DNA from: a virus
Lineage: Duplodnaviria > Caudoviricetes
Reading direction: 5' to 3' (one strand)
Virus record (IMG/VR): IMGVR_UViG_3300042557_000196
Location: 1 to 54,915 of that record
Length of the DNA stretch: 54,915 nt
The notes under the pieces were generated by a model. The model was given only the letters and a program-made list of their open reading frames with translations, did not search any database and had not been told where the DNA came from. Shown one piece after another: positions 3,832 through 46,302 of this stretch. A program made the translations under genes and the position numbers. Within the stretch, counting starts at the first letter, position 1. Each line of letters opens with the position of its first letter.

Positions 3832-4628
3832 TGGGCACCGCCGCTGGAATGCTGGACCTCGCTCGGCAGCAGGTCGGATACGTCGAAGGCCCTCGCAACA
3901 ACCAGACGAAGTACGGCGCTTGGAGTGGCTACAACTTCCAGCCTTGGTGTGGCTCGTTCGTCAACTGGTGCCTTCACTTCAGTGGAACTGGAGGCGAGCC
4001 GAGCGTTGTCTGGACCCCCGGTGGCGCTCAGTCGTACCAGAGGCTCGGTCGTGCGATCCCCCGCAACGGCGAAGTGCGACCCGGAGATGTTGTGTTCTTC
4101 GATTGGGGCGGCTCGCTCCTCGCCAGCAACGTGGATCACGTCGGGATTGTCGAAGCACCTCTCCCTGACGGGCGCATCCAAACCATTGAGGGCAACACCA
4201 GCCCTAGCGACTTCGGCTCCCAGTCGAATGGCGGTGGCTGCTACCGGCGAATCCGCAGCAGAGGCACCATCGCCATGTTCGGGCGTCCCCTCTACGCCCC
4301 CGACCCGGCTTCTCCGTGGACGCCGCCTCCTGCCAACGTGGACTGGGCTGCACTCCGTAGGTTCGTCGCAGCCGCCCTCAGGAACGATCTGCGGGCCGTT
4401 GGGACCGTCAAGCTCGGCTCCCGTGGGAAGGCCGTAGAAACGGTCCAGAAGGCCCTGAACCATGTCTCCGGGGCTGCCTTGCAGGCTGACGGGTCGTTCG
4501 GCCCTCAGACGCACGCAGCGGTCGTGGCATTCCAGAAGTTCTTTCGCCTCGCTGGCGACGGAGTGGTCGGTCCGCAGACCAAGGCGATGCTGGACCTCTG
4601 CCTCGCCAAGATTGCGGCTGGCCAGTAG
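3831..4628 (+). CDS. Endolysin: CHAP amidase plus C-terminal peptidoglycan-binding domain
   Basis: PWCGSFV, HVGIV and IEGNT CHAP motifs; DGSFGPQT..FQ..L..DGVVGPQT peptidoglycan-binding repeat. Confidence 0.9.
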   Translation: MGTAAGMLDLARQQVGYVEGPRNNQTKYGAWSGYNFQPWCGSFVNWCLHFSGTGGEPSVVWTPGGAQSYQRLGRAIPRNGEVRPGDVVFFDWGGSLLASNVDHVGIVEAPLPDGRIQTIEGNTSPSDFGSQSNGGGCYRRIRSRGTIAMFGRPLYAPDPASPWTPPPANVDWAALRRFVAAALRNDLRAVGTVKLGSRGKAVETVQKALNHVSGAALQADGSFGPQTHAAVVAFQKFFRLAGDGVVGPQTKAMLDLCLAKIAAGQ

Positions 4629-4629
4629 C

Positions 4630-5523
4630 TCACACTGAGCGATCCACGACACGCCGCAGCTTGCTGGGCGTCATGGAGTTGGGGTCCTTGACCTTGGCCG
4701 GGTACTTGAGGCGAGCAGTGGTCATCAGTCGCTGACCAATCTCGTCCTCTATCTGGTCGGCCAGCTTGTGGCCAGCGTCGTCGTTGTCAGCGGCGATCAG
4801 CACCACCTTCGGGACGAGAGACATGAGCGCCTTTCGCTGGTCGCTGGACATTGAGGACCCGTAGACCGACACGGCAGGCACTCCAATGTTCCAGAACGCC
4901 AGCGCATCGAAGCACCCCTCTGTCACCGCCACGACCGGCGACCCCATAGGAACCCGGTGATACGAGAAGAGGGTGGACTTGCGGGGGAAGCCCTTGGGGT
5001 AGCGGTACTTGACGCTGGAGTCCATGAAGCGTCGGTTGACCCCGAGCAAGCGACCTCGTGAGTCGTGCAGCGGGATCGTTATGGCCTTGGCAACTCCATC
5101 CCACCCGATCCTGAATCGCTTGGTGGTGATGCGAGTCAGATGCCGGTCGTTCCGCAGGTAGTCCCTGATCCTTGGAGGCAACACTGTGAACTGCTCCAGC
5201 CACTCCTCTGGGTAGACCTTGGGTTGCGCGCTCTGTCTGCCGCCGAGAGTGCGTTCGGTATGGTCCCGAAGCTCACTCAGACTGGGCATCGGCACGCTTC
5301 CCGCACCGACTTGCTTGACCAGCTTGCTGATCCCTCCTGACTCGCCGCAGCCGTAGCAAACGAAGAGTCCCTTGCGGACGTTGAACGCCATAGAGGGTCG
5401 GGAGTCATCGTGGAAGGGGCAGGTGCAGTACAACTCATCACCGCCGTCTATCCGCACGTCCAGATAGGTTTGAGCGAACTTGCGGTACCGCACCTGACCC
5501 CTCCCACTAGCTACCCTGCCCAC
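4630..5523 (-). CDS. dnaG: DNA primase (CHC2 zinc finger plus TOPRIM)
   Basis: CPFHDDSRPS..CYGC zinc finger; EGCFDA and DNDDAG TOPRIM motifs; exact start uncertain. Confidence 0.9.
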   Translation of the reverse strand: MGRVASGRGQVRYRKFAQTYLDVRIDGGDELYCTCPFHDDSRPSMAFNVRKGLFVCYGCGESGGISKLVKQVGAGSVPMPSLSELRDHTERTLGGRQSAQPKVYPEEWLEQFTVLPPRIRDYLRNDRHLTRITTKRFRIGWDGVAKAITIPLHDSRGRLLGVNRRFMDSSVKYRYPKGFPRKSTLFSYHRVPMGSPVVAVTEGCFDALAFWNIGVPAVSVYGSSMSSDQRKALMSLVPKVVLIAADNDDAGHKLADQIEDEIGQRLMTTARLKYPAKVKDPNSMTPSKLRRVVDRSV

Positions 5524-5815
5524 CGGCAGGAAGAGTGTGCTTTCGCACGAACTGGCGACGGTTGGCCCGAGCTTGCATCAGGTCGGCGTCGATTGGACAG
5601 AGCCTTGTGTCAGGCCCGTAGTGCATCAGTGGCTCACCCTCATGCTGCGGGGTGTACCAGCGGCAATCGGCGCTAAGAGTGTCTGCCAAGCAGAGCGGGC
5701 AGGTTTCGTCTGGATGCTCGTCCTCTGTCTGGATCGCCAGTAGGTAGGTTTCGATCCAGCGAGCAGCGTGGTACTGCTCCTCGTCGTCGTAGATGTTCGG
5801 GTCGAATGGCCGCAT
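5507..5815 (-). CDS. Hypothetical protein between helicase and primase
   Basis: Start overlaps the helicase stop codon; contains CxxC. Confidence 0.55.
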   Translation of the reverse strand: MRPFDPNIYDDEEQYHAARWIETYLLAIQTEDEHPDETCPLCLADTLSADCRWYTPQHEGEPLMHYGPDTRLCPIDADLMQARANRRQFVRKHTLPAGGQGS

Positions 5816-7092
5816 CAGTAGTCCTCCTTTGCGGCAATGTCCTGCTCACGGATCTCTTCGGCACGTTCCTTGGTGATCTCTTCATACCCGCCAGTGTTCG
5901 GCGTGAAGTGCGTCCACCAATCGACTCCATCACGACCGTGGCGGTACTTGGCCAAGCGGAGTCGCATAACGTGGTCCGATTCCTTCCGCATCGTGAGGAC
6001 AGCATCAGCGTCGTGGCCGATGGCATCCGAACCAGCCAAGTGCTCAACTCCGGGTGCCTTCCCCCCGACGCCCATGCGGTTGATCTGAGATGCCGCCACA
6101 ATCGGAATCTGATACCGCATGGCGAGGCCCTTGAGTTCTGCCGAGAGCTGGGCCATGTTCTGCCACTGCTCTCTTTGTGCCGACCCGCCTGATCCCATGA
6201 GTCCCAAGTAGTCCACGAACACGACGTTGGGGTTGTTCCTCTCAATCTGGGACGCAATGGTCAGTGGAGTGACCCGCCCAGTGCTGGCGTCGTTGATGAA
6301 CAGAGAGCCATCCAGCTTGTCCTTCATGGACTTGAGGTATGCCCGGTACTTCCGAAGGTCAACACTCCCCTTCTGCATGTCGCTGGCCCGGAACACTTGC
6401 TCCCCGTACTTGGACGAGAGGAACGCATGGACCCGAATGGCGATCTGGAGGCGTGACTGCTCCATTGCGTCGTACTGGACCCGGTACCCGCCGAAGAGGG
6501 CAGCACAAGCCATGCGGATGAGAGTCCACGTCTTTCCCTGACCGAGCCGAGCAGCGACTACCCAGAACTCTCCGGGTTCCATGCCCCCGGTGATCTCGTC
6601 CAGAGTCTCAAACCCCGTCGGGATACCCGGCATCCCATTGTCCTGAGAACGCTTGGCCCGGTTCTGAATGTCTCTGTAGATCGACTGCCAGTCATCGTTC
6701 AGCTCTTTCTCTGAGCCGCTGCCGTCTACCTGAGACTGAACCTTGATGATGTCCCGGTGCATTGACCCGAGAACCTTGGCGGGGTCCAGACCTTCCTGAA
6801 GAGAGTCATTCGCTTCCAGCATGATGGAAACCAGAGACTTCTCAACGTGATGCTTGGAAAGCTCTTCGACTCCGTATTCCACGTCATCGACTGCTAGGAG
6901 AGCTTCACCGAACTTGGACTTGTAGAGAGACTTACTAGGGACCCTTCCATGTCTCCTGTAGTAGTTGTCGATCCATGACCATTCCTGCGAGTAGTCGTGG
7001 AACCAGTCAGTCTCTACGCCTGATGAATGAACATGAGCCATGTTGCCTGTACGCAGCACGGCTGAGATGAGGAATCTTTCCGGGTTGGCCAT
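5815..7092 (-). CDS. dnaB: Replicative DnaB-like helicase
   Basis: GIPTGF, Walker A ARLGQGKT, VDYL, SQINR and K.RHG motifs; AGGA ribosome-binding site. Confidence 0.92.
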   Translation of the reverse strand: MANPERFLISAVLRTGNMAHVHSSGVETDWFHDYSQEWSWIDNYYRRHGRVPSKSLYKSKFGEALLAVDDVEYGVEELSKHHVEKSLVSIMLEANDSLQEGLDPAKVLGSMHRDIIKVQSQVDGSGSEKELNDDWQSIYRDIQNRAKRSQDNGMPGIPTGFETLDEITGGMEPGEFWVVAARLGQGKTWTLIRMACAALFGGYRVQYDAMEQSRLQIAIRVHAFLSSKYGEQVFRASDMQKGSVDLRKYRAYLKSMKDKLDGSLFINDASTGRVTPLTIASQIERNNPNVVFVDYLGLMGSGGSAQREQWQNMAQLSAELKGLAMRYQIPIVAASQINRMGVGGKAPGVEHLAGSDAIGHDADAVLTMRKESDHVMRLRLAKYRHGRDGVDWWTHFTPNTGGYEEITKERAEEIREQDIAAKEDY

Positions 7093-7185
7093 GAATCCTT
7101 CCTGAGTGGTGGGCAGTTGGGTAGCTGCCGGACAATAGGCCCAGAGAGCGGCGATCCGTTCCGAAATCTTTGACGACTTCTAATA

Positions 7186-7256
7186 CACGACATAGATGTC
7201 TGGTATGCCCCACGCCAGTGCTGGGGTCTGGCCCAAAGCACGACATTCGTGTCGTG
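7186..7256. promoter_or_regulatory. Two operator-like palindromes CACGACA-N4-TGTC(G)TG
   Basis: Perfect copy at 7239-7256 and imperfect copy at 7186-7203, between divergent operons. Confidence 0.5.
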
Positions 7257-7285
7257 TATCCAAAGTCCATTGAGTGTCGAAAGAC

Positions 7286-7314
7286 TTGACTATCGTGAAA
7301 GTAGAGGGTAGGCT
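7286..7314 (+). promoter_or_regulatory. Sigma-70/SigA-type promoter TTGACT-N17-TAGGCT
   Basis: Near-consensus -35 and -10 with a 17-bp spacer at the head of the rightward early region. Confidence 0.7.
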
Positions 7315-7320
7315 GGTGGA

Positions 7321-8160
7321 CGCCCCACGGGCCGCGCAGCGGTCGCGGTGGGGTGGCCACCCGGCCCAAGACTCCCGGGTGGCCGGGGGTCCCCGGCTAA
7401 AACCTCGGGGACAGCATCCCGGCGGCTGGCCTCGGTGGCTGGTCGTGGAAGGAACCCCGAATCAGACCGGCCTCCGGGTTGGGTGGGTGGATAGCCAAGC
7501 CCCACCTCGGTTCTGATTCAGGGTCCGGGCCTCCCCCATAGGTACCAACCGAAACCGGGAAGGAGTACTTGGCCCACGGGCCATGACTGACCCGGCCTCA
7601 GGTTGGTAGCCACTAACGGTGACCTCTCAGTCAGCGGCATTCCTGTCAACGACCTGATCCTCTACGCCCGTCGGTCGATGCGACCGCCCGGACGGGCCTC
7701 AAGTAGGGCAGTCAGGCAACGGTGGCAGGCATCGTACTCAACGATGAACCCATCCCGGTTGTACGGGGCGAGATCAGTCACCAGCAAGCTGCAACCTCCA
7801 CTGAGCGTGGCGGGCCTTGGAAATGGCCCTCAAGGTTGTGTTCCTACCGTACAGCTTGACCACCTTCACCCCGCCCTCGGACTGCGAGCGACTGGCGGGG
7901 ACTAACCCCACCCTCTCATCGGGCACCGTTAGTTCTCCAAGCGGACACCGCTTGGCATGGTCCTCTTCGGCCTCATCGCATTCGACGTTCATGGAACGGC
8001 ACCAGCGAACTCGCCGCACGACCTTGCACAAGCCCCGCAGCGGAGAATGCGACGGACGTGGCAAACGGCTTGGTCATGCGACGACCTCGCCGGGGTGCGA
8101 ATCCCATAAGCGGTTCGACTGAGAGTTCGGGGCAAACGCCACCCGGTGCTTCGGCACCCT
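7321..8160 (+). ncRNA. Candidate large structured non-coding RNA or structured leader
   Basis: More than 12 local and long-range helices visible (see findings); no convincing CDS; starts just after the promoter. Confidence 0.55.
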
Positions 8161-8193
8161 CAACCAACAACCAACCAACAAGGAGAACAACCA

Positions 8194-8535
8194 ATGGCCA
8201 AGCTCACCAAGTGTCCAGACCACCTCCGGTTCCGTTCGCTGCGGGACTTCGGTGACGCCATCGACAACGCAACCCTCCCCACCGACAACATCCTCCTGAG
8301 CTGGGGAGGTCGGCACTCACTCGTCGTCAAGGTGTCACGGACTCGCGACTGCGGATGGCGGCTGACGTTCATCGACGCGCCAGACTCCATCCGCCCGGAA
8401 CGCTTCGTCGCCTTCATGCAGCGGAGGTTCAAGGGATGGGACGGCGCATCCCTCGTCACCGCCAAGTCCGTGGCAGGCAACCCGAAGGCAACCGGCCTCA
8501 AGCGGTGGACCGAACACACGGTCATCGTGGACTGA
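8194..8535 (+). CDS. Early hypothetical protein
   Basis: ATG 8194 follows a CA-rich leader and AAGGAG. Confidence 0.75.
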   Translation: MAKLTKCPDHLRFRSLRDFGDAIDNATLPTDNILLSWGGRHSLVVKVSRTRDCGWRLTFIDAPDSIRPERFVAFMQRRFKGWDGASLVTAKSVAGNPKATGLKRWTEHTVIVD

Positions 8536-8650
8536 CCATCCTCTACGCCCGCCAGTGCGGGCCAACCTCGTGGGGCCGGGACGCCCCTTCCTCCAACCCC
8601 TTGTCCCGGCCCCACGCAACGCCCAACAACCAACAAGGAGTACAACCAAC

Positions 8651-9070
8651 ATGGCAAAGCTCACCGCAACCACCTACGACGACCTCTACAACGTCCTGAC
8701 CGACGAGAACGTGGAAGAGGCTGTCATCGGCAACAACACCACGGCCTTCCTCAACCAGCGTAGTTGTGAAATCGAAACGGTGAAGGTGGCTCTCCACGGC
8801 AGCGTGATCGCCGTCCTCTACGCCAACGACAAGGTGGCGTTCTCGCTGGCTGGCTACCCCACGGTCACGACTCGTGAGCGGATCAACCAGTTCTTGCCCT
8901 CTGGCTACAAGGTCGTCCAGCGTGGCGGGGTTCAGTTCGTGTCTCTGCCTGACGGCACCTACAAGGAACTCAACCCGCTGCGGACCTACACGATCTACGG
9001 GACTCACCGGGTCAATGGCTACACCGTCCCGGCCCGCATCGCCATGACCACTTCGGTCAACGACCTCTGA
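8651..9070 (+). CDS. Early hypothetical protein
   Basis: ATG 8651 follows a CA-rich leader and AAGGAG. Confidence 0.8.
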   Translation: MAKLTATTYDDLYNVLTDENVEEAVIGNNTTAFLNQRSCEIETVKVALHGSVIAVLYANDKVAFSLAGYPTVTTRERINQFLPSGYKVVQRGGVQFVSLPDGTYKELNPLRTYTIYGTHRVNGYTVPARIAMTTSVNDL

Positions 9071-9356: not shown

Positions 9357-10229
9357 ATGCCCAAGGCAACCCGCAAGGCTGGGACCTCCAGCCCCAAGTC
9401 CACCACCACGACCACCAGCGGCACTCGCAAGCCCGCCGCACGACGCAAGGCAGCATCCTCTACGCCCGCCGAGCAGCACGTTCCCGAATCGACTGAGCCG
9501 AACCCTCGTGCGGCTCACCGTGAGCGGATGGCTGCCAAGGAGGCCATGACCAAGGCGGTCACGGAATCCGCCAAGGTGCCGATGGAGTACAGCGACTTCG
9601 CCAAGCTGGACGACGCCCTCAAGGCGGCGCTCATCACTGGGCTGGACGCCGACTCCAACGGTGGCCAGTCCCGCAACGAAGTGGGCGAAGAGTACTTCGA
9701 CACGTTCATGGACGAGTTGGTCGACGGCCAGATGGACTTGGACATTGACTCGTTCATCGTCGCCTTGCTCGTTCGCCGTCGCAACCTCATCCTCCACGCC
9801 ACTGGCGACCCGGAGGCGCACGAAGAGTACAGCGACTTCAACGGCACGGGCGCTGGCCTCTTCGTCAAGGGCATGTACGAAGCGTTCGGCCTCAGGGCCA
9901 CCAGCGATGCTTGGGAGGCACCCAAGCCTGCCGCCACCAGTGGCAGCAAGGACGGGCCAATCTTCTCCGTCAGGGAAGTCACTGACGGCGAGGCCAACCC
10001 AACCGAACCTGCGTATCGCTCGGTGTACGAGGCCATCAACGATGGCGTTGGCCGTGGCACTCGCATCGCCATCCTGTACTCACGAGGCAACACCAACCGC
10101 CGCAAGTACCACGGCGAGATGGGGACCGTCCTCAACGTCAACCGGACGACCATCACCGCCAAGCTGGACTCCAGCGGCATCAAGGCCCGTGTCTCGCCCC
10201 AGCTTCTCTTCAAGGTGGTGGACGTTTGA
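9357..10229 (+). CDS. Early hypothetical protein with basic N-terminal tail
   Basis: (CCAA)n leader and AAGGAG; strongly biased codon usage. Confidence 0.8.
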   Translation: MPKATRKAGTSSPKSTTTTTSGTRKPAARRKAASSTPAEQHVPESTEPNPRAAHRERMAAKEAMTKAVTESAKVPMEYSDFAKLDDALKAALITGLDADSNGGQSRNEVGEEYFDTFMDELVDGQMDLDIDSFIVALLVRRRNLILHATGDPEAHEEYSDFNGTGAGLFVKGMYEAFGLRATSDAWEAPKPAATSGSKDGPIFSVREVTDGEANPTEPAYRSVYEAINDGVGRGTRIAILYSRGNTNRRKYHGEMGTVLNVNRTTITAKLDSSGIKARVSPQLLFKVVDV

Positions 10230-10285
10230 TGACCACCTCAACCACCCGCCAGTCAACCAACGCAACCAACAACAAGGAGGGCCGT

Positions 10286-11338
10286 ATGGCCACGACCACC
10301 ACCACCTCGCGGAAGGCCACCAAGCGTTCCGCCTCTACGCCCGCTGCTGCGCCGGTCCACCCGCTGGCCAGCCTCATCCCCGATCCCGCCACCTACTTGG
10401 ACGGGTACGTTCACCGCACCATCCGTGGAGTCAACGACTTCGACTACATGGATCAGGTCTGGGAGGGTGACGGCAACGCCGCCTACAACCTCCTGATCGA
10501 AGGCCCGACGGGTGCGGCCAAGACGTCGCTCTGCTACGCATGGGCGGCATCCCGTGGCATCCCCCTCCTGCCCATCAGCGGCACCAAGGCCATCGACATG
10601 GAGCAGCTCGTCGGAGGCCCCGGCATCATCGGCAGCGAACTCAAGTCGTTCGTGCCGGGTGTTCTCGTTCAGGCCATGCAGTACGGCGCACTCGTGCTGC
10701 TGGACGAGAAGAACTACATCCCGCAGAAGGCGATGGGCCGCCTCAACTCGCTGCTGGATCGCCGCAAGTCGCTGGAAGTCAAGGAGGCCGAAGGTTCCGG
10801 CTGGTGCGCTTCCTGCGGCCTCTACAACGACGTGGAAGCGATTGCCAAGGCGCAGGAGGCAGTCATCCTGCACCACCTCGGCAAGCGCAAGGCTGCGGCC
10901 AAGCCGCCAGTGTGCAAGCACTGCGGCGAGGTGTACCAGTCCACCATCGTGACCGCCCTCGCTGGCAAGTTCATGGTCGTGGCGACGCAGAACCCCGGCT
11001 ACGAGGGGGTCTACGACGACAACGAAGCCCAGCGCAACCGCTTCCACGAGGTGGTCACTTTCGACTACGACGTGGAAGTGGAGAAGGACCTCTTGTGGTC
11101 CGACGGACTCATGGCCCTCGCTGCGGCGATCCGGGGACGCTACGGCATGGACTTTGAGACACCCCTCGGCACCAACCGGCTCATGCACTTTGAGGCGGTC
11201 GCACTCAACGAGAAGCTGGGCATCGGTTTCGCCTGTGAGGGCTTGGTCGATTACTTCCAGCCCTCCGAGCGTGCTGCCGTCAAGGAACTGCTGGAGATGC
11301 ACCTCTCGCAGATCGAAGCAGAGCTGGCGGAGGTCTGA
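10286..11338 (+). CDS. MoxR/CbbQ/CobS-like AAA+ ATPase with zinc-ribbon insertion
   Basis: Walker A GPTGAAKT, Walker B LLDE, sensor TQNP and NRF; CASC..CKHC insert; start at ATG 10286 after AAGGAGG. Confidence 0.85.
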   Translation: MATTTTTSRKATKRSASTPAAAPVHPLASLIPDPATYLDGYVHRTIRGVNDFDYMDQVWEGDGNAAYNLLIEGPTGAAKTSLCYAWAASRGIPLLPISGTKAIDMEQLVGGPGIIGSELKSFVPGVLVQAMQYGALVLLDEKNYIPQKAMGRLNSLLDRRKSLEVKEAEGSGWCASCGLYNDVEAIAKAQEAVILHHLGKRKAAAKPPVCKHCGEVYQSTIVTALAGKFMVVATQNPGYEGVYDDNEAQRNRFHEVVTFDYDVEVEKDLLWSDGLMALAAAIRGRYGMDFETPLGTNRLMHFEAVALNEKLGIGFACEGLVDYFQPSERAAVKELLEMHLSQIEAELAEV

Positions 11339-11421
11339 CCGCCACGCTGACCGGGGTATGACTCGCTCTGCCCCGGTCAGCACCCACCCTCTACGCCCAA
11401 CCAACCAACAAGGAGAACAGC

Positions 11422-13515
11422 ATGCCGTCTACAGTCGAAGAACGCGCTACGGCGCACGCAGAGGTCACTTCATTCTGCCAGCGAGTTCTGGCCAGCCTCG
11501 TGCAGTCGCAGGGCAAGGTTGTCCGATCCATCCTCGGCAACGACACCCCGGTGACATACCACTACCAGTTCAACTCAAGCTTCTCCGCACCGTCCATCGC
11601 ATGGACTGATATGAAGAGTGTCTACATCAGCTTCGACAAGGCTAGCGAGGGGCTGGAGAAAGCGATCAGGGACTCCAAGGTGGACACCGAGCTGGTGACC
11701 CTCTCGGCAGTCGTGAAGCACGAACTCGCTCACCTCATGTTCAGCCCCGGCATGGACTCGCAGTTGATGGATGAGGTTCGTCGTTGCGGCGTTAGCACCG
11801 CGTTCAACATCCTTGAGGACAGCAGGATTGAGCGACTCTTCATCGCCAAGTACCCCGTGATGGCCAAGCTGTTCTCCATCATGGTCAACCGCTGGGTTGT
11901 CAGCGGGAACGCAAGGGCCCACCAAACCTCTTGGACTTTGCTGGCTGGAAGGCGCTACCTCAGCAGCGCAGTGAGGGACGCCTCGCGGGCCTCATTCGTC
12001 GGCTGGGCAAGGAACATGGGCATGGCCTCGGTAGGTCAGGTTGCCGACAGGGTGCAGCAGATTCATGACGCCTTCTACCGACTCGTGCCGTCGAACGACA
12101 AGCGCATCCTCTCTACCGACGATCATCAGATGATTCTGCTGGCCAAGGAGTTGGCAGACATTATCGCGTGCGGCGCCAATATGTCTGAAAGCACTGGGCA
12201 CTCTGATCCGAGCCAGTCCGGCATGGCCAACGATAGCCGTGGTGATGCACCCTCGGAGGCTTCCAAGGACGCCTTGGAAGAGGGGGACGCTCAGGCCAGT
12301 CAGGATGGGGATGGCAGCGACTCCACTGGTGGCGACGACGCTGCCTCTACGCCGAGCGACGCCGACGATGATGCCGATGCTGATGCCGATGCCGATGCAT
12401 CCTCCGCTGGCGACAGTGACGGCGACGCCGCCTCCAGCGACGGCGAAGGCGACGGCGAAGGCGACGGCGAAGGCGACGGCGACTCCAGCGAAGGCGACGG
12501 CGGATGCGGCGGCGACTCCACTGGCAGCGGCGATGCAGGTGGTTCCAAGGACGGAGAGGTGGCGAACGAACATGGCCACGGCGGTTACTCCAAGGGCAGT
12601 GGCAGCGACGCCTACGACCCTGTAAGCCTCGGTAAGGCCGCTCAGGAGTCCATCGACGCTGCGATGCAGTCCTCCGAGATTCAGAATGAGGTCCAGTCGT
12701 ACCGGGACCTCATGAACGACGGGTCGGGGCTGCGCTCGTTCTCCAAGCGCATCGGGCCAGCGAATGTCAAGCCCAACCCCGAACACTCGGTTTACGGTGC
12801 GAGCGAAATCCGGGCTAACGCCAAGGCGGCAAGTTCCAAGGTCGCCAAGGAGTTGGGTCGCCTTCGGTCGGCGGTTGAGGAAGAGCTGCTCACGAAGGAG
12901 TCTCGTGGCCGACTGGACGTTTCGGAGATCGTGCGCCGAACCATCAAGGACAAGCCTCTCGTCAACATCTACCGCCGCTTCGACGACGGGCAGGAGGACG
13001 AGGCTGGCATCGACATGGTGGTGATGGTGGACGGTTCTGCCTCAATGGGCTACGGCCATTCGTACAAGGCTTGTGCTGCCGCTTGGGCACTCAAGCACGC
13101 GATGGATCGCATCGGGCAGCCTTGCGGGGTGGTCAGTTTCTCCAACGTCTGCCGGACGATCTACGACTCCTACGAGAAGGCGGGGTCGGAACCAGTGTGG
13201 TCCTATGACTCGCAGAACACCGACCCCTTCATTGGCGCCGTTGCGGCACGGGACTTCTTCTCTCGCCCCAACGCCAACAAGGTGCAGGTGTTCGTTCTCC
13301 TCACTGACGGTTCGTTCGATGCAGAGACTGACGTGGTGGTCAAGCAGATGAACGACGCTGGCGTCATCACCGCCCTCTTCGGCTTGTCTAATGCCGTCCT
13401 CAAGCACGGCGATCACTCGTGCGCCATTTCCAGCGACATTCAGAACTCTCTGGAGATGGTGGCGATCGTCCGCAAGATTGTCCTCGCTGCCCAGCGAAAG
13501 GTGATCGAAGGGTGA
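11422..13515 (+). CDS. vWA-domain partner of the MoxR ATPase with N-terminal HExxH domain (CobT-like)
   Basis: HELAH and NILEDSRIE motifs; acidic Gly/Asp/Ser linker; MIDAS motifs DGSASM and LTDG. Confidence 0.85.
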   Translation: MPSTVEERATAHAEVTSFCQRVLASLVQSQGKVVRSILGNDTPVTYHYQFNSSFSAPSIAWTDMKSVYISFDKASEGLEKAIRDSKVDTELVTLSAVVKHELAHLMFSPGMDSQLMDEVRRCGVSTAFNILEDSRIERLFIAKYPVMAKLFSIMVNRWVVSGNARAHQTSWTLLAGRRYLSSAVRDASRASFVGWARNMGMASVGQVADRVQQIHDAFYRLVPSNDKRILSTDDHQMILLAKELADIIACGANMSESTGHSDPSQSGMANDSRGDAPSEASKDALEEGDAQASQDGDGSDSTGGDDAASTPSDADDDADADADADASSAGDSDGDAASSDGEGDGEGDGEGDGDSSEGDGGCGGDSTGSGDAGGSKDGEVANEHGHGGYSKGSGSDAYDPVSLGKAAQESIDAAMQSSEIQNEVQSYRDLMNDGSGLRSFSKRIGPANVKPNPEHSVYGASEIRANAKAASSKVAKELGRLRSAVEEELLTKESRGRLDVSEIVRRTIKDKPLVNIYRRFDDGQEDEAGIDMVVMVDGSASMGYGHSYKACAAAWALKHAMDRIGQPCGVVSFSNVCRTIYDSYEKAGSEPVWSYDSQNTDPFIGAVAARDFFSRPNANKVQVFVLLTDGSFDAETDVVVKQMNDAGVITALFGLSNAVLKHGDHSCAISSDIQNSLEMVAIVRKIVLAAQRKVIEG

Positions 13516-18696: not shown

Positions 18697-21375
18697 GTGA
18701 CGTTCTTTCATACCCACGTCCATAGCCACTACTCGGTTCTGGACGCCATGACCCCGGTTGCTGATCTAGTTCACAAGGCGCATCGTTACTCGCACCCGGC
18801 AATGGGCCTGACCGACCACGGAGTCATGTCAGGTTCGTTCCAGCTCTACAAGGAGTGCCGCAGTCTGGACATGCTCCCGTTCCCCGGCCTTGAGGCATAC
18901 GTCGTGGATGACGTGGACGACAAGACTGCGAAGCGATACCACCTCACGCTCCTGTCGTTCACGACAGAGGGCTACAAGTTCTTGGTCAGGCTCTCCTCGC
19001 TTTCGCACCAGCGTGGCCACTACCACTTCAAGCCACGACTCGGGATTCTGGACCTGATCCAAGCGGCGGGTGCTGATCCCAAGGGTGCCGCTGGAGTCGC
19101 CTGTCTGACCGGGTGCTTCTTCGGGTGGCTCATGCAGCACTACGGCGACCAGTCAGAAGGCAAGAGAGCCGTTGACCAGCTTCGTGCCATCTTCCCGGCG
19201 ACCTACGTTGAGTTGCAGCACCACAACACCCAGCAGAAGGAAGGCCCCGACGATGACGAGGCGCTCGGCTGGTTGATGGACGTTGCCGAAGCTTCGTCCT
19301 CTCCCGTGATTCTGACGCAGGACTGCCACTACTGCGACAAGAGCGAAGGCAAGCTGCACGACCGTATGAAGATGCTCGCCTATGGAGGTGCGGACCCCGG
19401 CGATGTTGGTTTCCCCGGCGACTCTTATCACTTGTCCACGGCAAGCTGGGTTAGGTCGCACGTCAGTGATGCAGTGTGGGAGGCGGCGCTCCCGGCTTAC
19501 GACGACCTGATGAGCAAGCACACTCTGTCCATCCCGACGCTGGACAACTACTCGTTCCACGTTCCGCAGCTTGGCAAGGCGGACCCGCAAGCCGCACTGG
19601 CGAAGGAGTGCGACCGTGCGCTCAAGGATGCGAACCTTGCCTCTACGCCGAAGTACGTCAAGCGGCTGGAGTATGAGCTTGACGTGATCCAGCAGCTCTC
19701 GTTCGCACCGTACTTCCACCTCGTGGCCGACTATTGCCAGTGGTCACGGGATCAGGGAATCAGCATCAACGCCCGCGGGAGTGCGAACGGGTCACTCGTC
19801 TGCTGGCTCATGGGGATCACTGACGTTGACCCGATTGCATGGAGGCTTTCGTTCGACAGGTTCCTAACGATCGACCGTGAGAGGCCACCGGACATTGACC
19901 TTGACGTTGAGGACACAAGGCGTCACGAAGTCATCGACTACCTCAAGGCCAAGCACGACGTGGTGCAGATCGGCACCTACCACGCCATGTCTGCGAACGA
20001 AGAGGGCGGCGGGTCAATCTTCGTGTCGTGGATCAGCAGCAGGCGTCGCGCTCTGGATCACGAAACCTTCCAGCGTGAGTACGGGGGTGTCCGCAACTTG
20101 TGGGACATGAAGAGCAGGCACCCGGAGGAGCTTCGTGAGCTGGACGAGCTTGCGGAGATGAACCTCCTAAAGTCGCCTTCTGCCCACGCTGCCGGGTTCG
20201 TTATGTCTGCCCCGACTCTCAAGGTGGGCGACTGGATTCCGACCATGCTGATCCCGTCGTCAGACACGACCGTGACTCAAATGACGATGGACGACGTGGA
20301 GGACGCAGGGTTCGTCAAGATTGACTTGCTCGGGCTGCGCTCTCTCACAACGCTGCGGATGGCGACGCAGCTTGTTGCTGATCGGGAGAACATGAACCCT
20401 GATGAAGTCATCGAACGTATGCCTCTCAACGACGCCAAGGTGTTCACCTTTCTCCGCAAGGGCATTCCTGACAACGGCGTGTTCCAGATGGAGGGCAAGG
20501 CTGCGGCGCAAGGCTGCCGCCAGCTTGGCGTGAGGCGGATTGAGGACTTGGTACTGGTCAACGCTCTCTACCGCCCAGCGGCCCGTGACGCCGGATACAC
20601 GGAGTCGTATCTCAAGCGGCGCAAGAAGCTGGAGCCAGTGCCGACGTTCCATCCAGTGTTCGACAAGCACCTCAAGCCAACGCTTGGCGTTCCTGCGTTT
20701 CAGGAGCAGGTGCTGGACATTATGCGCGACCTTGGTATGCCAGCCGCAGAAGTCAATAGCGTTCTCAAGGCGATCAAAGGCAAGCACGGCGGTGCTGATT
20801 CCTCTACCTACTTCGACGCCGCCTACTCCAAGTTCGTCACGTCCTGCGCCGAAGCTGGGTTGGACGAGGATCAGACAGACCATGCATGGGACTTGGTAGA
20901 AGGCTTCTCTCGCTACGGGTTCAACCGTGCCCACGCCGTTGCCTACTCCTTGCTCGGGTACAGGCTTGCTTGGCTCAAGGTCAACTTCCCGCTGGAGTTC
21001 CACACTGCGCTGCTGGCCACCACTGCGGGCACGAAGAAGGAAATCCTCTACGCCAAGGAAGCCCGTAGGTCAGGAGTTCGACTGCTGCCACCTGACGTGA
21101 ACATCTCTGGGATGACGTGGACCATCGACCGCCAGCGCAATGCAATCCGCCGTGGCCTCGTGTCCATTGACGGGGTTGGCATGAACGCAGCAGAAGAGGT
21201 TTGGGGGTCCGCACCATACGAGTCAATGGATGACCTCATCGAACGCACCCATTCCCGCATCGTCACTGGCGGAAAGGAGTGGGCCAAGTCCGGTCTATTG
21301 AAGGGAGTGCTAGTGAAGCTTCGTGAAGCTGGGGCCTTGAGGTCCCTTGGTGTCAAGCCGGAAGGAGAGTCATGA
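18697..21375 (+). CDS. dnaE: DNA polymerase III alpha subunit (phage family C polymerase)
   Basis: PHP domain HTHVHSHYSVLD and TDHG; RGSA, PDIDLD, KIDLLGL and YGFNRAHA; ends shortly after the HhH region. Confidence 0.96.
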   Translation: MTFFHTHVHSHYSVLDAMTPVADLVHKAHRYSHPAMGLTDHGVMSGSFQLYKECRSLDMLPFPGLEAYVVDDVDDKTAKRYHLTLLSFTTEGYKFLVRLSSLSHQRGHYHFKPRLGILDLIQAAGADPKGAAGVACLTGCFFGWLMQHYGDQSEGKRAVDQLRAIFPATYVELQHHNTQQKEGPDDDEALGWLMDVAEASSSPVILTQDCHYCDKSEGKLHDRMKMLAYGGADPGDVGFPGDSYHLSTASWVRSHVSDAVWEAALPAYDDLMSKHTLSIPTLDNYSFHVPQLGKADPQAALAKECDRALKDANLASTPKYVKRLEYELDVIQQLSFAPYFHLVADYCQWSRDQGISINARGSANGSLVCWLMGITDVDPIAWRLSFDRFLTIDRERPPDIDLDVEDTRRHEVIDYLKAKHDVVQIGTYHAMSANEEGGGSIFVSWISSRRRALDHETFQREYGGVRNLWDMKSRHPEELRELDELAEMNLLKSPSAHAAGFVMSAPTLKVGDWIPTMLIPSSDTTVTQMTMDDVEDAGFVKIDLLGLRSLTTLRMATQLVADRENMNPDEVIERMPLNDAKVFTFLRKGIPDNGVFQMEGKAAAQGCRQLGVRRIEDLVLVNALYRPAARDAGYTESYLKRRKKLEPVPTFHPVFDKHLKPTLGVPAFQEQVLDIMRDLGMPAAEVNSVLKAIKGKHGGADSSTYFDAAYSKFVTSCAEAGLDEDQTDHAWDLVEGFSRYGFNRAHAVAYSLLGYRLAWLKVNFPLEFHTALLATTAGTKKEILYAKEARRSGVRLLPPDVNISGMTWTIDRQRNAIRRGLVSIDGVGMNAAEEVWGSAPYESMDDLIERTHSRIVTGGKEWAKSGLLKGVLVKLREAGALRSLGVKPEGES

Positions 21376-46200: not shown

Positions 46201-46302
46201 GTCAACACTGGCGTGGGGGACGGGGTTGAGATCGGCAGGACCGTGGTGGACTACATCACCACCTACGAGCGAGTGAACGGGAAGGGCTGGCGAGCAGCAT
46301 GA
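43261..46302 (+). CDS. Tape measure protein
   Basis: 1013 aa; FAIATPFE and GKVQAEEMNQLAERGIP; periodic Trp/Phe repeats; GIDSPSKV. Confidence 0.95.
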   Translation: MIIADLVAKLRADPSDFIKGTERARDELGRFVTTAKTATGSSGGGGVVGMLGPLGKIGGLAATAFAGFGAASFAKEAIFGFNSQLQNAEMAFTSMMGSGEKAQAFLGDLKQFAIATPFEFTDLVSASQRMTALGFSAEDILPALQKVGDASAAMGGSKDVLDGVIRAMGQIKMKGKVQAEEMNQLAERGIPGWEMLAEKIGVSIPEAMEMSRKGAIDADTAIAALLEGMDKRYGGLMEKQSQSFTGAMSNIKDAAIQTIGGGFKPLFDILTKAGVAFAAFLGSEKVKSFVEAFASGFATVIQFLLDAGGKVIEFINGFGGVGAIMEYVIPIAAALAGYLAMTGAIAGIGKLVGVISNIGKALAGIMTANPILLIVALIIGGLVLAYQKVEWFRDGVNTAFAFLKDTVIPAVVTGFKTFIDTFVSGSNSITQSGFLQFIQEVAIGARDFWDALYAAGQTAVSWVKDTAWPAMQTAFDGIKSAIEAVKGPLEDFGNFWTERWDAIKEATTNVVNVLKPILLVLTAPLWLPIIAGIKMFQWIWENAGDKVMEIVRTLVDLVKNQFQAFVRVIGGVIDVVLGLLTLDWDRIKSGFGNIVGGIIDGFKNLIPSLFRIFQSVLTIVIRAFGSIGGWLLGWLGDVAGWLLEKGAGLVTGMLSGMLGAIGGIRDFFLSLPGTILGLIGDAASWLLEKGKDILTGLWDGIEELAPKVWSWFSDLPGKVIDHIGSVNRTLREKGIQLITGLRDGIVEWVPNIWNWLKSFPGNVLAFIGNLGSTLLNKGIDLVTGLVSGLLNAAPRVWSFISGIPGNVLRFIGSLISTLLDKGSDLMTGLKNGITSAWESVRSWVADIPDKLSKAVGSLSSVLYGAGRNLVDGLKNGISAAWSGVSSFVQEQINKIPSIIRRLMGIDSPSKVMMKIGTQIGDGLFLGLQDGFSKVDGLVGTASASLTPSITGSLMASAGQAVAAGSTPGWAGAGSATYVINVNTGVGDGVEIGRTVVDYITTYERVNGKGWRAA

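What the first reader, a model, noticed from the sequence alone, without database searches (positions are those of the whole stretch)
7321..8160. Candidate ~840-nt highly structured phage RNA as the first product of the early promoter
Seen: no credible CDS between the promoter and ATG 8194, but a dense set of complementary segments. These are CCCCAC 7323/GTGGGG 7348; GGCCACCCGG 7355/CCGGGTGGCC 7375; GTCCCCG 7389/CGGGGAC 7406; GAATCAGA 7459/TCTGATTC 7512; TACCAACC 7543/GGTTGGTA 7601; and a long-range ACTAACGGTG 7612/CACCGTTAGT 7924. The last encloses GCCCGTC 7666/GACGGGC 7691, CATCGT 7730/ACGATG 7741, the multibranch CAAGCTG 7785/CAGCTTG 7852 with CAACCT 7792/AGGTTG 7833, and CCCCGCC 7869/GGCGGGG 7894. 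Further helices follow: CCAAGCGG 7937/CCGCTTGG 7948, TCGCATTC 7976/GAATGCGA 8045, and a C-UUCG-G hairpin at 8145-8158. The helices nest without conflict. Established: phages carry large ornate ncRNAs such as GOLLD and ROOL. I cannot assign this one to a known class. Inference: a possibly new large ncRNA (decoy, scaffold or ribozyme) or a cis-acting antitermination leader.
Basis: partly seen in the sequence, partly recalled or inferred. Interest (0 to 1): 0.85.

Follow-up and report, generated by a model that had tools for sequence, protein, structure and literature searches.

The report
Hairpin-rich untranslated leader in a lake phage
A 1.1-kb stretch without genes between the helicase gene and the first rightward genes of an uncultured lake phage is most likely a long, hairpin-studded untranslated RNA leader, but nothing yet shows it to be a large folded RNA machine.

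Summary
The observation largely holds. All 13 quoted complementary word pairs sit at the stated coordinates. No frame of 7120-8140 shows coding signal, and this is the longest non-coding stretch of the window. Short-range hairpins are about three times denser than in shuffles (16 vs 5.1±2.8, 0 of 300).

The large ornate RNA is not shown:
- Long-range pairs are at chance level. Six of 14 proposed helices, including the 7612/7924 closing helix, have pair probability ≤0.18.
- The reverse strand folds equally well (z -4.6 vs -3.8).
- No Rfam match.
- No alignable homologue in 160 related loci, so covariation cannot be tested.
- No RNA data.

Context favours a rightward transcript. The only promoter-like site in 7000-8300 (TTGACT-17-TAGGCT, 7286-7314) recurs in relatives' gaps. 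There, the downstream non-coding stretch often carries a strand-specific tRNA acceptor/T-arm minihelix (28 of 75 stretches vs 1 on the other strand). The window lacks it.

Best reading (about 0.5): an ~870-nt hairpin-rich early leader or non-coding RNA, functionally like the L5/D29 Pleft RNA. Rivals: replication origin or control DNA, neutral spacer, true ornate ncRNA.

The parts
5815..7092 (-). dnaB-like replicative helicase gene, left border of the gap; dnaG-like primase lies further left at 4630-5523
   Evidence: 425-aa ORF. tblastn best hit is a DnaB-like helicase of Brevibacterium phage Cantare, 39.3% identity. Precomputed Pfam PF03796. Primase domains Toprim_2 and Zn_ribbon_DnaG.
7175..7267 (.). 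Operator-like region upstream of the promoter. Three copies of ACACGACA(T/C) at 7185-7193 (+), 7238-7246 (+) and 7249-7257 (-), within 26-nt imperfect inverted arms 7175-7200 / 7242-7267
   Evidence: (D3, I1). The motif is not enriched genome-wide (10 matches vs 12.6 expected), so only the local clustering is notable. Relatives carry their own 3-5 palindromic repeats at the same relative place.
7286..7314 (+). Promoter-like site TTGACT - 17 nt - TAGGCT
   Evidence: Only match in the whole window to TTGACN-N16-18-TANNNT on either strand (1.13 expected by chance, so position, not count, is the argument). Only match in 7000-8300 even to TTGNNN-N16-18-TANNNT. Same -10 hexamer and 17-nt spacing in relatives' gaps: L013, L019, L050.
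7321..7353 (+). Stem-loop at the predicted 5' end of the transcript
   Evidence: 51-nt fold of 7315-7365: -35.1 kcal/mol, z -2.17, 7 of 200 shuffles as good. Formed in the span-limited fold but only 0.18 probability in the global ensemble. 6 of 6 promoter-proximal stretches examined in window and kin begin with a hairpin, individually weak.
7355..7412 (+). Two strong GC hairpins: GGCCACCCGG/CCGGGTGGCC (7355-7384) and GTCCCCG/CGGGGAC (7389-7412)
   Evidence: Pair probability 0.98 each and in the MFE. The perfect 10-bp stem is listed.
7454..7608 (+). Two longer local stem-loops: 7454-7524 (GAATCAGA/TCTGATTC core) and 7543-7608 (TACCAACC/GGTTGGTA core)
   Evidence: Pair probabilities 0.94 and 0.95; I16.
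7612..7933 (+). It contains well-supported local hairpins 7666-7697, 7730-7746 and 7869-7900; the closing helix and the 7785/7852 multibranch are not supported
   Evidence: Local hairpins 0.95-0.99. Closing helix 0.00, 7785/7852 0.00, 7792/7833 0.02. Long-range repeats at chance level. A direct repeat of ACTAAC at 7901 gives an alternative 6-bp partner for the 3' strand (D8).
7850..8000 (+). C-rich, G-poor segment of the leader
   Evidence: GC skew -0.28 to -0.22 in 100-nt windows. That it could serve as a Rho loading site is inference only.
8145..8193 (+). Gene-start module: GGTGC-UUCG-GCACC hairpin, then CA-rich leader CAACCAACAACCAACCAACAAGGAG with Shine-Dalgarno site
   Evidence: Hairpin probability 0.97. 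The module recurs at 8596-8649 (D1). CAACCAACAAGGAG has 7 matches with up to 2 mismatches vs 0.48 expected. 3 of 6 such sites examined are preceded by a strong hairpin: 8172, 8627, 11402. The same CA-rich leader is the only part alignable to relatives L005 and L029.
8194..8535 (+). First rightward gene, 113 aa, no family match
   Evidence: Positive coding score. No Pfam or PHROGs hit. No close relative in viral contigs.

Best explanation
Window 7321-8160 is the untranslated body of an ~870-nt leader transcript. It is started by the single sigma-A/sigma-70-type promoter at 7286-7314, in the 1.1-kb divergent control region between dnaB (leftward) and the first rightward gene (ATG 8194).

The RNA is not one ornate global fold. 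It is a chain of stable GC-rich local stem-loops: a 5'-terminal one plus at least eight of high probability.

Proposed mechanism (inferred):
- The 5' stem-loop and the hairpin chain make a long untranslated RNA resistant to 5'-end-dependent RNases and to Rho.
- The transcript therefore accumulates early, as a stable non-coding RNA and/or as a regulated leader of the early operon.
- The last hairpin with the CA-rich Shine-Dalgarno module (8145-8193) marks where the translated mRNA part begins, possibly after processing.

It is the positional counterpart of a non-coding locus kept across a wide clade of dnaB/dnaG/dnaE siphoviruses. [quoted passage not shown]

Shown: non-coding status, hairpin excess, promoter match and its recurrence in kin, and strand-specific RNA elements in kin.
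Inferred: transcription, stability, and any function of the RNA.
For: Non-coding in all six frames and the largest such stretch of the window.

No protein remnants.

The only promoter-like site on either strand in 7000-8300 points rightward at 7286. The same TTGAC(T/A)-17-TAGGCT occurs in the gaps of L013 and L019, and TTGATT-17-TAGGCT in L050. No second promoter match lies before ATG 8194, so the first gene's mRNA should include the leader.

Local hairpins: 16 vs 5.1±2.8 (0 of 300 shuffles). MFE z -3.79 against 20 genomic tiles with mean -0.80 and minimum -3.02. 8 of 14 helices have probability 0.94 or more.

A long non-coding stretch (about 0.6-1.7 kb) beside or near dnaB is seen in most of 33 kin lineages, over GC 0.34-0.62.

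In kin the rightward non-coding stretch carries a tRNA acceptor/T-arm minihelix: 30 hits in 28 of 75 distinct stretches on the rightward strand, 1 on the other strand, 0-3 in shuffles. All 81 cells are paired and 3 pairs are compensatory in the 7-sequence class.

The nearest kin L005 (DnaB 55%) has the same layout: three operator repeats, a promoter-like site, an ~800-nt leader, a hairpin, and a CA-rich SD. Its leader folds far better on the rightward strand (z -6.94 vs -2.94).

Precedent: L5/D29 Pleft RNA, about 500 nt, no ORF over about 30 codons, most abundant early transcript, processed to 100-400 nt (PMC5712189, passages and section 11).
Against: No transcript evidence of any kind: none of the 10 listed runs is on record as RNA.

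In the window the reverse strand folds as well or better (z -4.64 vs -3.79; G-U pairs 22-23 vs 20-29). The hairpins are equally compatible with a DNA-level role or a leftward RNA.

No alignable homologue, so no covariation.

The promoter match alone is not significant (1 found, 1.13 expected in the window).

Four of 20 coding tiles have z below -2.5, so the fold excess is moderate.

The kin leaders that are truly homologous to each other (L013, L019, L014, L009, L086) have unremarkable z of -1.5 to +0.2 on the rightward strand. Hairpin richness is lineage-specific: 8 of 22 gaps are clearly enriched.

The window lacks the kin minihelix.

In the cultured kin Cantare and DalanDe the promoter-like site lies about 40-70 nt from the first gene, and the gap upstream is AT-rich. 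The gap is therefore not a transcribed leader in every lineage.
Confidence: 0.5

Rival explanations
1. DNA-level element. The gap is the phage replication origin and/or a divergent control region. The GC-rich palindromes act as DNA (cruciforms, protein-binding or helicase/primase loading sites), or the promoter's transcript primes replication through an R-loop, as at ColE1 or phage T4 origins.
For: It lies directly beside dnaB and dnaG. The stems are perfect Watson-Crick palindromes that fold equally on both strands. A non-coding gap at this junction is kept across the clade. In many kin the gap holds 3-5 copies of a sequence-conserved palindrome (AAACCCTTA-n-TAAGGGTTT in L009, L013, L014, L015, L019, L021), and in cultured kin it is AT-rich (GC 0.41-0.49), as expected of origins or operators. 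The first 200 nt after the promoter are GC 0.67-0.77 with positive GC skew of +0.09 to +0.16.
Against: Within 7321-8160 there are no iteron-like direct repeats and no AT-rich unwinding stretch (GC 0.65, above the window's ~0.60). The repeated motifs of the window lie upstream of the promoter (7185-7257), not in the hairpin region. Kin carry a strand-specific RNA element in the corresponding stretch. R-loop priming is a recalled analogy and was not tested.
Confidence: 0.2
2. Neutral or decaying spacer. The stretch is leftover sequence, for example eroded genes, whose GC-rich hairpins are incidental or merely act as scattered terminators or stabilisers without a joint function.
For: No sequence conservation with any of 160 related loci. 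Gap content differs strongly between lineages. Moderate fold z-scores also occur in coding tiles. A pseudo-RBS, AACCGGGAAGGAGTAC at 7553-7568, resembles the real one at 8628-8643 (D10).
Against: Phage genomes are compact, and this is the only gap over 480 nt in 54.9 kb. A gap of similar size is kept in lineages of GC 0.34-0.62. Hairpin density is 3 times that of shuffles. No protein remnant is detectable.
Confidence: 0.15
3. One reading: a discrete, about 840-nt, globally folded ornate ncRNA of a new class (decoy, scaffold or ribozyme), comparable to GOLLD or ROOL.
For: Size, phage origin and lake habitat resemble GOLLD. The helices can be nested without conflict. Fold z -3.8. Three lineages (window, L005, L007) have leaders of about 814-902 nt from predicted start to first ATG despite no sequence similarity. 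The L007 leader ends in a tmRNA-type tRNA-like domain.
Against: No Rfam match, even at E up to 10. Long-range and multibranch helices have probability 0.02 or less and are at chance level. No strand asymmetry. No covariation is obtainable. There is no terminator-like site to define a 3' end (0 found).
Confidence: 0.12
4. Hidden small protein genes or a recoded gene occupy the gap.
For: ORFs of 80-120 aa exist in several frames.
Against: All six frames score below zero for codon usage. No PHROGs hit for 6 of 6 gap ORFs. No Shine-Dalgarno site at proper spacing from a start codon, from reading the sequence. At 65% GC, ORFs of this length are expected by chance.
Confidence: 0.03

Closest known systems
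Pleft early non-coding RNA of mycobacteriophages L5, D29 and StarStuff (Dedrick et al. 2017, PMC5712189; passages and section 11 read)
   Same: It is the first product of the early lytic promoter of an actinobacteriophage. It spans several hundred nt without an ORF over about 30 codons. It lies between the promoter and the first early genes, is poorly conserved in sequence, and is reported as very abundant, stable and processed.
   Different: No sequence similarity: blastn of 7100-8200 against 50,697 phage records found nothing. It is about 500 nt at the genome's right end, versus about 870 nt at an internal dnaB-divergent junction. Expression, stability and toxicity are shown for L5/D29 and unknown here.
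GOLLD, ROOL and OLE large ornate RNAs (PMC12286853 and PMC5737381, search listing and abstracts only)
   Same: Length class of 600-800 nt. Phage or prophage association. GOLLD was first seen in lake metagenomes (recalled).
   Different: No match to any of 4227 Rfam models at gathering score, nor at E up to 10 apart from a 13-bit chance hit to sX2. No conserved multi-domain architecture and no covariation. Long-range helices are unsupported.
tRNA-like modules of non-coding RNAs: the tmRNA tRNA-like domain, bacterial and phage YrlA Y RNAs (PMC4201824, passages read), and phage-encoded tmRNA downstream of an early promoter (phage Melnitz, PMC9004378, passages read)
   Same: Relatives of this phage carry, at the corresponding place and strand, an acceptor-stem plus T-arm minihelix. 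One (L007) scores 64.7 bits on Rfam tmRNA and one (L019) 24.8 bits on tRNA. In Melnitz the tmRNA also follows an early promoter.
   Different: The window has no such element. A pattern scan allowing 1 acceptor-stem mismatch and covariance model R1 with filters off (best E 0.17, in coding sequence) found none in the gap. Only a 13-nt GGGTGCGAATCCC at 8093-8105 resembles the L009 T-arm. No Ro60/TROVE protein was seen: the 697-aa neighbour has only a VWA domain.
Processive antitermination or long regulatory leaders (lambda nut, HK022 put; recalled)
   Same: A structured RNA between an early promoter and the early genes.
   Different: No Rfam cis-regulatory family matched. No terminator-like sites that would need overriding were found (0 in 6900-8700). 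Not otherwise tested.

Membership tests
Any described RNA family (Rfam 15, including GOLLD, ROOL, OLE, tmRNA, tRNA, group I/II introns, riboswitches) | Covariance-model match at or near the family's gathering score | tested here: not met
   Whole window at gathering score: only tRNA at 49286-49359. 7000-8300 at E up to 10: only sX2, 13 bits against a gathering score of 40.
Evolutionarily conserved structured RNA (generic criterion) | Compensatory base changes in homologues | not testable with these tools
   No alignable homologue. The best DnaB relative is 57% identical. Of 160 related loci, none matches the gap by blastn, nhmmer or Smith-Waterman beyond the CA-rich SD leader. Other lake runs hold only near-identical fragments.
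Evolutionarily conserved structured RNA (generic criterion) | Folding energy below shuffled and genomic background, specific to one strand | tested here: inconclusive
   + strand z -3.79 (0 of 40), below all 20 genomic tiles (minimum -3.02). But - strand z -4.64.
Clade-specific tRNA acceptor/T-arm minihelix RNA (found here in relatives) | 7-bp acceptor stem, 5-bp T stem, TTCRANN loop, A then CAA tail, on the rightward strand of the dnaB gap | tested here: not met
   The strict scan and the scan allowing 1 acceptor-stem mismatch find none in the window's gap on the + strand. Model R1, filters off: 28 hits at E up to 10, the best 0.17 in coding sequence, and only an 8.5-bit hit at 7211-7238 in the gap. 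The model's reach is limited: it missed L007, L034 and L046.
L5/D29-type Pleft early non-coding RNA | Lies directly downstream of the early lytic promoter and lacks ORFs | tested here: inconclusive
   ORF-free status is met. The promoter is only predicted and its timing is unknown.
L5/D29-type Pleft early non-coding RNA | Abundant, stable, processed transcript | not testable with these tools
   No RNA holder listed for this sequence.
L5/D29-type Pleft early non-coding RNA | Sequence homology to the Cluster A RNA | tested here: not met
   No blastn match in 50,697 phage records.
Phage replication origin | Iterons or repeated binding sites plus an AT-rich unwinding region | tested here: not met
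   For 7321-8160: no multi-copy direct repeats, and GC 0.65. Three ACACGACA copies lie outside, at 7185-7257. Origin activity itself is not testable here.

The most novel reading that the evidence does not exclude
The window's ~870-nt leader may be the GC-rich, minihelix-less member of an undescribed class of phage early non-coding RNAs of about 450-900 nt. These occupy the dnaB-divergent junction throughout a broad clade of aquatic and soil siphoviruses.

In many lineages the RNA ends in a tRNA acceptor/T-arm minihelix. Some carry the G3:U70 alanine identity pair, and one matches the tmRNA tRNA-like domain. This points to hijacking of RNase P, CCA-adding, AlaRS or trans-translation machinery, or to RNase P-made 3' ends as in MALAT1/mascRNA.
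Probability: 0.2. Interest if true: 0.8.

Novelty: new variant of a known kind. Interest (0 to 1): 0.42.

Why it matters
If transcribed and stable, this would be a second, unrelated example of an actinophage-type virus spending its first transcription on a long non-coding RNA. The function of that behaviour is still unknown even for L5 and D29.

The comparison made here also shows that the dnaB-divergent junction of a large, mostly uncultured phage clade is a hot spot for non-coding RNA elements, including tRNA and tmRNA mimics. That gives concrete, testable targets.

If it is only a spacer or origin, the result is ordinary.

Tried and rejected
Homologue searches
- DNA homologue search in phage records: no match.
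- Single-protein searches of viral contigs with DnaB and the 113-aa first gene: no relatives.
- Alignment-based DnaB searches gave 80 + 80 loci. None is closer than 55% in full-length DnaB, and none aligns with the gap.

Rfam
- Searched on the window.
- Searched on 28 kin loci at gathering score.
- Searched on parts of L007, L019 and L005 at relaxed E.
- Only L007 tmRNA and a sub-threshold tRNA hit in L019 came back.

Other scans
- ARAGORN: only tRNA-Lys in the window, and nothing in the kin gaps except tRNAs in L058 and L059.
- Shared k-mer motif search across 15 gaps: nothing above shuffles except the T-loop word.
- A profile HMM of six homologous kin leaders finds L086 and L009 but not the window.
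- Terminator scan: 0 sites.

Other tests
- Strand test by G-U counts: no asymmetry.
- Clade-wide test of rightward-strand fold bias: negative in 7 further leaders.

Sequencing runs
- No RNA holder listed.
- Contigs of 4 other lake runs cover only fragments, with 2 substitutions and 1 insertion inside the region. These were uninformative for compensatory change.

Tools and literature
- Five literature searches found no description of this gap, of the GMA6 gap, or of the minihelix. These searches were not exhaustive.
- Supplementary tables of PMC4524720 (repeat lists for GMA6) and the alignment file of PMC5712189 could not be seen and may bear on these points.

Ideas considered and dropped
- Group I/II intron, retron, CRISPR array, MITE, attP tRNA fragment (both acceptor strands are present in kin, so it is not a 3' fragment), permuted two-piece tmRNA (the strand order is not permuted), and Ro60/Y RNA (no TROVE domain).
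Full report
WHAT THE WINDOW IS

The window is a whole IMG/VR virus record of 54,915 bases, estimated 74% complete, with about 60% GC. Its genes include:
- a tape-measure protein (43261-46302);
- a DnaE-type polymerase III alpha subunit (18697-21375);
- a MoxR/CobS-like AAA ATPase (10226-11338) followed by a VWA/CobT-like protein (11422-13515);
- a DnaG-like primase (4630-5523, minus strand);
- a DnaB-like helicase (5815-7092, minus strand).

The nearest cultured relatives are distant. tblastn of DnaB against 50,697 phage records gave 2691 records, all under 60% identity. The best were Brevibacterium phage Cantare (39.3%) and Gordonia phages of the GMA6 type (about 38%). Among 5.8 billion proteins the best non-self DnaB is 57% identical. 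Near-identical DNA is held only by lake and freshwater metagenome runs, plus one marine run with a small share.

CHECK OF THE OBSERVATION

Coordinates. Every one of the 13 complementary word pairs is at the stated coordinate and is an exact reverse complement. The GGTGC-TTCG-GCACC hairpin is at 8145-8158.

Non-coding status.
- I trained a codon log-likelihood score on 24 long genes of the window.
- It is below zero in all six frames in most 180-nt windows starting 7120-8080 (highest -0.01), and +0.2 to +0.6 in dnaB and in the genes from 8194 on.
- The stretch about 7081-8281 is by far the longest low-coding stretch of the window; the next longest are 480 nt.
- The six gap ORFs of 73-120 aa have no PHROGs match (0 of 6).
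- tblastn of 2380 ORFs taken from relatives' upstream regions against the gap gave only noise (best per-query E 0.003).

Is the pairing more than chance? For short-range hairpins, yes.
- Perfect 7-nt inverted repeats with loops of 60 nt or less number 16, against 5.1±2.8 in dinucleotide shuffles (0 of 300 reach 16). Only 1 of 129 tiles of the same size elsewhere in the window reaches it.
- The minimum free energy of the 840-nt + strand is -401.6 kcal/mol, z -2.84 with 20 shuffles and -3.79 with 40 (0 of 40).
- Twenty other 840-nt tiles of the window have mean z -0.80, sd 1.18 and minimum -3.02, and four of them are below -2.5.
- The region is therefore the best-folding tile, but not by a wide margin.

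For long-range pairing, no.
- 9-mers pairing within 350 nt number 4, against 2.0±2.0 (62 of 300 shuffles reach it).
- In the partition function of the isolated 840-nt RNA, eight of the 14 proposed helices have mean pair probability 0.94 or more. These are 7355/7375, 7389/7406, 7459/7512, 7543/7601, 7666/7691, 7730/7741, 7869/7894 and 8145/8154.
- Six have 0.18 or less: the closing helix 7612/7924 (0.00), the multibranch 7785/7852 (0.00), 7792/7833 (0.02), and also 7976/8045, 7937/7948 and 7323/7348.
- Some of these six do form when the pairing span is limited to 120 nt, as would happen co-transcriptionally.

Strand. The reverse complement folds at least as well (-416.7 kcal/mol; z -3.71, -4.64). 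G-U pair counts are alike on the two strands (22-23 vs 20-29). The fold signal therefore says hairpin-rich DNA or RNA. It does not say + strand RNA.

KNOWN FAMILIES

- Rfam 15 (4227 models) gives only the tRNA at 49286-49359 at gathering score.
- For 7000-8300 at E up to 10 it gives only a 13-bit hit to sX2, whose gathering score is 40.
- ARAGORN finds only tRNA-Lys(CTT) at 49286-49362.
- The stretch is therefore not GOLLD, ROOL, OLE, tmRNA, an intron or a riboswitch by these models.

HOMOLOGUES AND COVARIATION

- blastn of 7100-8200 against phage records found nothing.
- Single-protein scans of IMG/VR found no close relatives.
- With an alignment of 28 DnaB relatives I fetched 80 loci from IMG/VR (101 of 137 candidates confirmed). 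I fetched 80 more from metagenome contigs (114 of 463 confirmed).
- The closest with context is L005 (DnaB 55%).
- Neither blastn nor nhmmer nor Smith-Waterman with shuffle controls (9 kin gaps) aligns anything in the gap.
- The one exception is the CA-rich Shine-Dalgarno leader next to ATG 8194. It beats all 40 shuffles for L005 (35 vs a maximum of 27) and L029 (37 vs 31), and for none of the other 7.
- Contigs from four other lake runs cover fragments at near identity. They show 2 substitutions and 1 insertion inside the region, which is uninformative.

THE SURROUNDINGS

Promoter.
- The only match in the whole window, on either strand, to TTGACN-N16-18-TANNNT is TTGACT-17-TAGGCT at 7286-7314, pointing rightward.
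- One match is what chance gives in 55 kb (1.13 expected). The argument is its place in the divergent gap.
- It stays the only site in 7000-8300 even under the loose pattern TTGNNN-N16-18-TANNNT.
- The simple TTGACA/TATAAT scanner found none.

Upstream of the promoter are three copies of ACACGACA(T/C) within an imperfect 26-nt inverted repeat at 7175-7267.

Downstream, at the far end, the 8145-8158 UUCG hairpin is followed by CAACCAACAACCAACCAACAAGGAG and the ATG.
- This module recurs at 8596-8649.
- CAACCAACAAGGAG has 7 matches with up to 2 mismatches, against 0.48 expected.
- Three of six such sites examined (8172, 8627, 11402) are preceded by a strong hairpin.
- The last hairpin of the finding is therefore part of a gene-start module, not of a large RNA body.

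WHAT RELATIVES SHOW

A per-locus coding-potential map of 33 kin lineages shows a long non-coding stretch of about 0.6-1.7 kb at or near the start of dnaB in most of them. Their GC content runs from 0.34 to 0.62. The cultured phage GMA6 has an unannotated 1054-nt gap there, Cantare 661 nt and DalanDe 403 nt. The content of the gap differs between lineages.

(a) Nearest kin L005 has the same layout as the window:
- three GAGAACCATTCTC repeats;
- a TTGACT promoter-like site;
- about 800 nt of hairpins;
- a terminal hairpin and a CA-rich SD.
Its leader folds much better on the rightward strand (z -6.94 vs -2.94). This is the one case with the strand asymmetry expected of RNA.

(b) L013 and L019 carry the window's promoter hexamers with the same spacing (TTGACT or TTGACA - 17 - TAGGCT), and L050 has TTGATT-17-TAGGCT. 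All six promoter-proximal stretches examined (window, L013, L019, L050, L007, L005) begin with a stem-loop. Individually this is weak: z runs from -0.06 to -2.58, and only L005 beats all 200 shuffles.

(c) Many kin carry a tRNA-like minihelix downstream of that promoter, on the rightward strand. It has a 7-bp acceptor stem, a linker of 18-111 nt, a 5-bp T stem with a TTCRANN loop, the 3' acceptor strand, and then A and usually CAA.
- A strict pattern scan gives 30 hits in 28 of 75 distinct upstream stretches on the rightward strand. It gives 1 hit on the opposite strand and 0-3 hits per full set in 20 shuffles.
- Acceptor stems differ completely between lineages yet stay paired.
- In a 7-sequence class, all 81 cells are paired and 3 of 12 pairs show changes on both sides (2 of 500 shuffles reach this).
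- The L007 copy scores 64.7 bits on Rfam tmRNA (gathering 47). It is a tRNA-like domain with the 308-nt body replaced by 15 nt, and it has G3:U70.
- The L019 copy scores 24.8 bits on tRNA (gathering 29).
- A covariance model of the short class (R1) also finds L009 (30.9 bits).

(d) The leaders of L013, L019, L021, L014, L015 and L119 are homologous to each other over about 450-620 nt. RNAalifold suggests that a distal strand also pairs with the 3' acceptor strand, with two covarying positions.

(e) Upstream of the promoter these kin carry 3-5 copies of a sequence-conserved palindrome, AAACCCTTA-n-TAAGGGTTT. That looks like protein-binding DNA.

THE WINDOW DOES NOT SHARE THE KIN ELEMENTS

- It has no minihelix by the scan allowing 1 acceptor-stem mismatch or by R1 with filters off (28 hits at E up to 10, the best 0.17 and in coding sequence). 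R1 has limited reach, since it missed L007, L034 and L046.
- The profile of the homologous kin leaders does not hit it.
- Only a 13-nt GGGTGCGAATCCC at 8093-8105 resembles the unusual T-arm of L009 (GGGTGCGAAGCCC). It has no acceptor stem.
- L005 also lacks the minihelix and any Rfam hit.

HAIRPIN RICHNESS IS NOT CLADE-WIDE

- 8 of 22 gaps tested reach 1 or fewer of 200 shuffles for hairpin count.
- The mutually homologous kin leaders have ordinary fold z on the rightward strand (-1.49, -0.26, -1.40, +0.20, -0.92).
- In Cantare and DalanDe the promoter-like site lies about 40-70 nt from the first gene, and the gap upstream is AT-rich. There the gap is not a leader.

INTERPRETATION

Shown:
- a 1.1-kb non-coding divergent region;
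- a single, kin-conserved promoter match at its left part, pointing right;
- a threefold excess of stable local hairpins downstream of it;
- a gene-start module at its right end;
- in relatives, strand-specific RNA elements in the corresponding stretch.

Inferred: the window's 7321-8193 is transcribed as an ~870-nt untranslated leader whose hairpins matter at the RNA level. I put this at about 0.5.

The most likely mechanism is stabilisation. The 5' stem-loop would protect against 5'-end-dependent decay, and dense structure would protect against Rho on an untranslated RNA. This would give either an abundant early non-coding RNA or a regulated leader.

The closest functional analogue is the Pleft RNA of L5, D29 and StarStuff. 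It is about 500 nt, has no ORF over about 30 codons, is the most abundant early transcript, and is processed to 100-400 nt. Its function is unknown, and the region that encodes it is toxic to the host (PMC5712189). That is a likeness of behaviour, not membership, since there is no sequence similarity.

Rivals:
- a DNA-level origin or control element (0.2), favoured by the lack of strand asymmetry and by the dnaB/dnaG neighbourhood;
- a neutral spacer (0.15);
- a true globally folded ornate RNA (0.12);
- hidden small genes (0.03).

NOVELTY AND VERDICT

As it stands, this is a new, orphan variant of a known kind of thing: a long non-coding early leader in a phage. Its RNA-level function is unproven. 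The ornate ncRNA claim is not supported by the tests that could be run.

The more interesting result lies outside the window. The dnaB-divergent junction of this phage clade repeatedly houses tRNA and tmRNA mimics and a homologous leader RNA family. I found neither in Rfam nor in five literature searches (not exhaustive). Phage tmRNAs next to early promoters and tRNA-mimicking Y RNAs in phages are in print (PMC9004378, PMC4201824).

Interest for the finding itself is moderate.

Noticed in passing
L007 3766-3847 (minus strand of locus; same in L006): An 82-nt match to Rfam tmRNA (64.7 bits, gathering 47). It spans model positions 1-374, but the 308-nt mRNA-like and pseudoknot body is replaced by 15 nt. 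It is a tRNA-like-domain-only mini-tmRNA with G3:U70 and an ACAA tail, followed by a strong hairpin. It sits about 700 nt downstream of a TTGATA-17-TAGAAT promoter-like site in the dnaB gap. ARAGORN does not call it.
   Followed up: partly
Kin loci, for example L013 2785-2845, L014 3898-3964, L019 2351-2408, L034 4566-4650, L046 4580-4664, L031 3260-3374, L032 2225-2332, L086 200-271, L009 3558-3613 (all minus strand of locus): A tRNA acceptor/T-arm minihelix with a conserved A-CAA tail on the rightward strand of the dnaB gap. There are 30 hits in 28 of 75 distinct stretches, against 1 on the other strand and 0-3 in shuffles. Acceptor stems covary between lineages, and the L034 and L046 types also carry G3:U70. 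No Rfam family reaches its gathering score.
   Followed up: partly
Alignment A5: L013 2784-3230, L019 2350-2916, L021 383-938, L014 3897-4442, L015 3028-3647, L119 2441-2984 (minus strands): The 450-620-nt non-coding leaders of these low-GC kin are homologous, with conserved blocks from the promoter to the minihelix. RNAalifold pairs a distal copy of the 5' acceptor strand (columns 234-241) with the 3' acceptor strand (668-675), with G-C to U-A and C-G to U-G changes. This hints at an alternative, tmRNA-like closure. Their overall fold z is ordinary.
   Followed up: partly
Kin upstream stretches, window orientation, numbered from 30 nt inside dnaB: L009 480-690, L013 380-590, L019 400-560, L014 360-470: Three to five copies per gap of a sequence-conserved palindrome, AAACCCTTA-n-TAAGGGTTT, upstream of the promoter. 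It is shared between lineages of GC 0.40-0.56 and looks like an operator or iteron for a DNA-binding protein.
   Followed up: no
L005 about 3937-4720 (minus strand; leader of the nearest relative): The leader folds with z -6.94 on the rightward strand but -2.94 on the reverse, with equal shuffled baselines. This is the only clear strand-specific fold signal seen in this study.
   Followed up: no
window 8093-8105: GGGTGCGAATCCC resembles the atypical T-arm (GGGTGCGAAGCCC) of the L009 minihelix and lies at a similar distance from the first gene. No acceptor stem could be found, so it may be a relic or chance.
   Followed up: partly
window 8569-8649 and 11346-11415: Strong perfect hairpins (14-bp and 11-bp stems), each followed by CAACCAACAAGGAG and a start codon. 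This repeats the module seen at 8145-8193 and suggests RNA processing or stabilising signals between early genes.
   Followed up: partly
window 10226-13515: A MoxR/CobS-like AAA ATPase (AAA_5, E 6.5e-13) followed by a 697-aa protein with a C-terminal VWA domain. The pair is syntenic with genes annotated as porphyrin biosynthesis and CobT-like in GMA6, Cantare and DalanDe.
   Followed up: no
window 7612-7629 and 7901-7918: A direct repeat, ACTAACGGTGACCTCTCA / ACTAACCCCACCCTCTCA. It gives the 3' strand CACCGTTAGT (7924) two possible partners, distal (10 bp) and proximal (6 bp). This loosely echoes the distal and proximal acceptor strands of the kin RNA and could be chance.
   Followed up: no
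L003 3480-4533 (Gordonia phage GMA6 46979-48032): A cultured relative has an unannotated 1054-nt gap (GC 0.49) at the same junction, partly similar to L053 (nhmmer E 5.7e-08). It has no minihelix or consensus promoter. It is a possible experimental handle on the clade's gap.
   Followed up: partly
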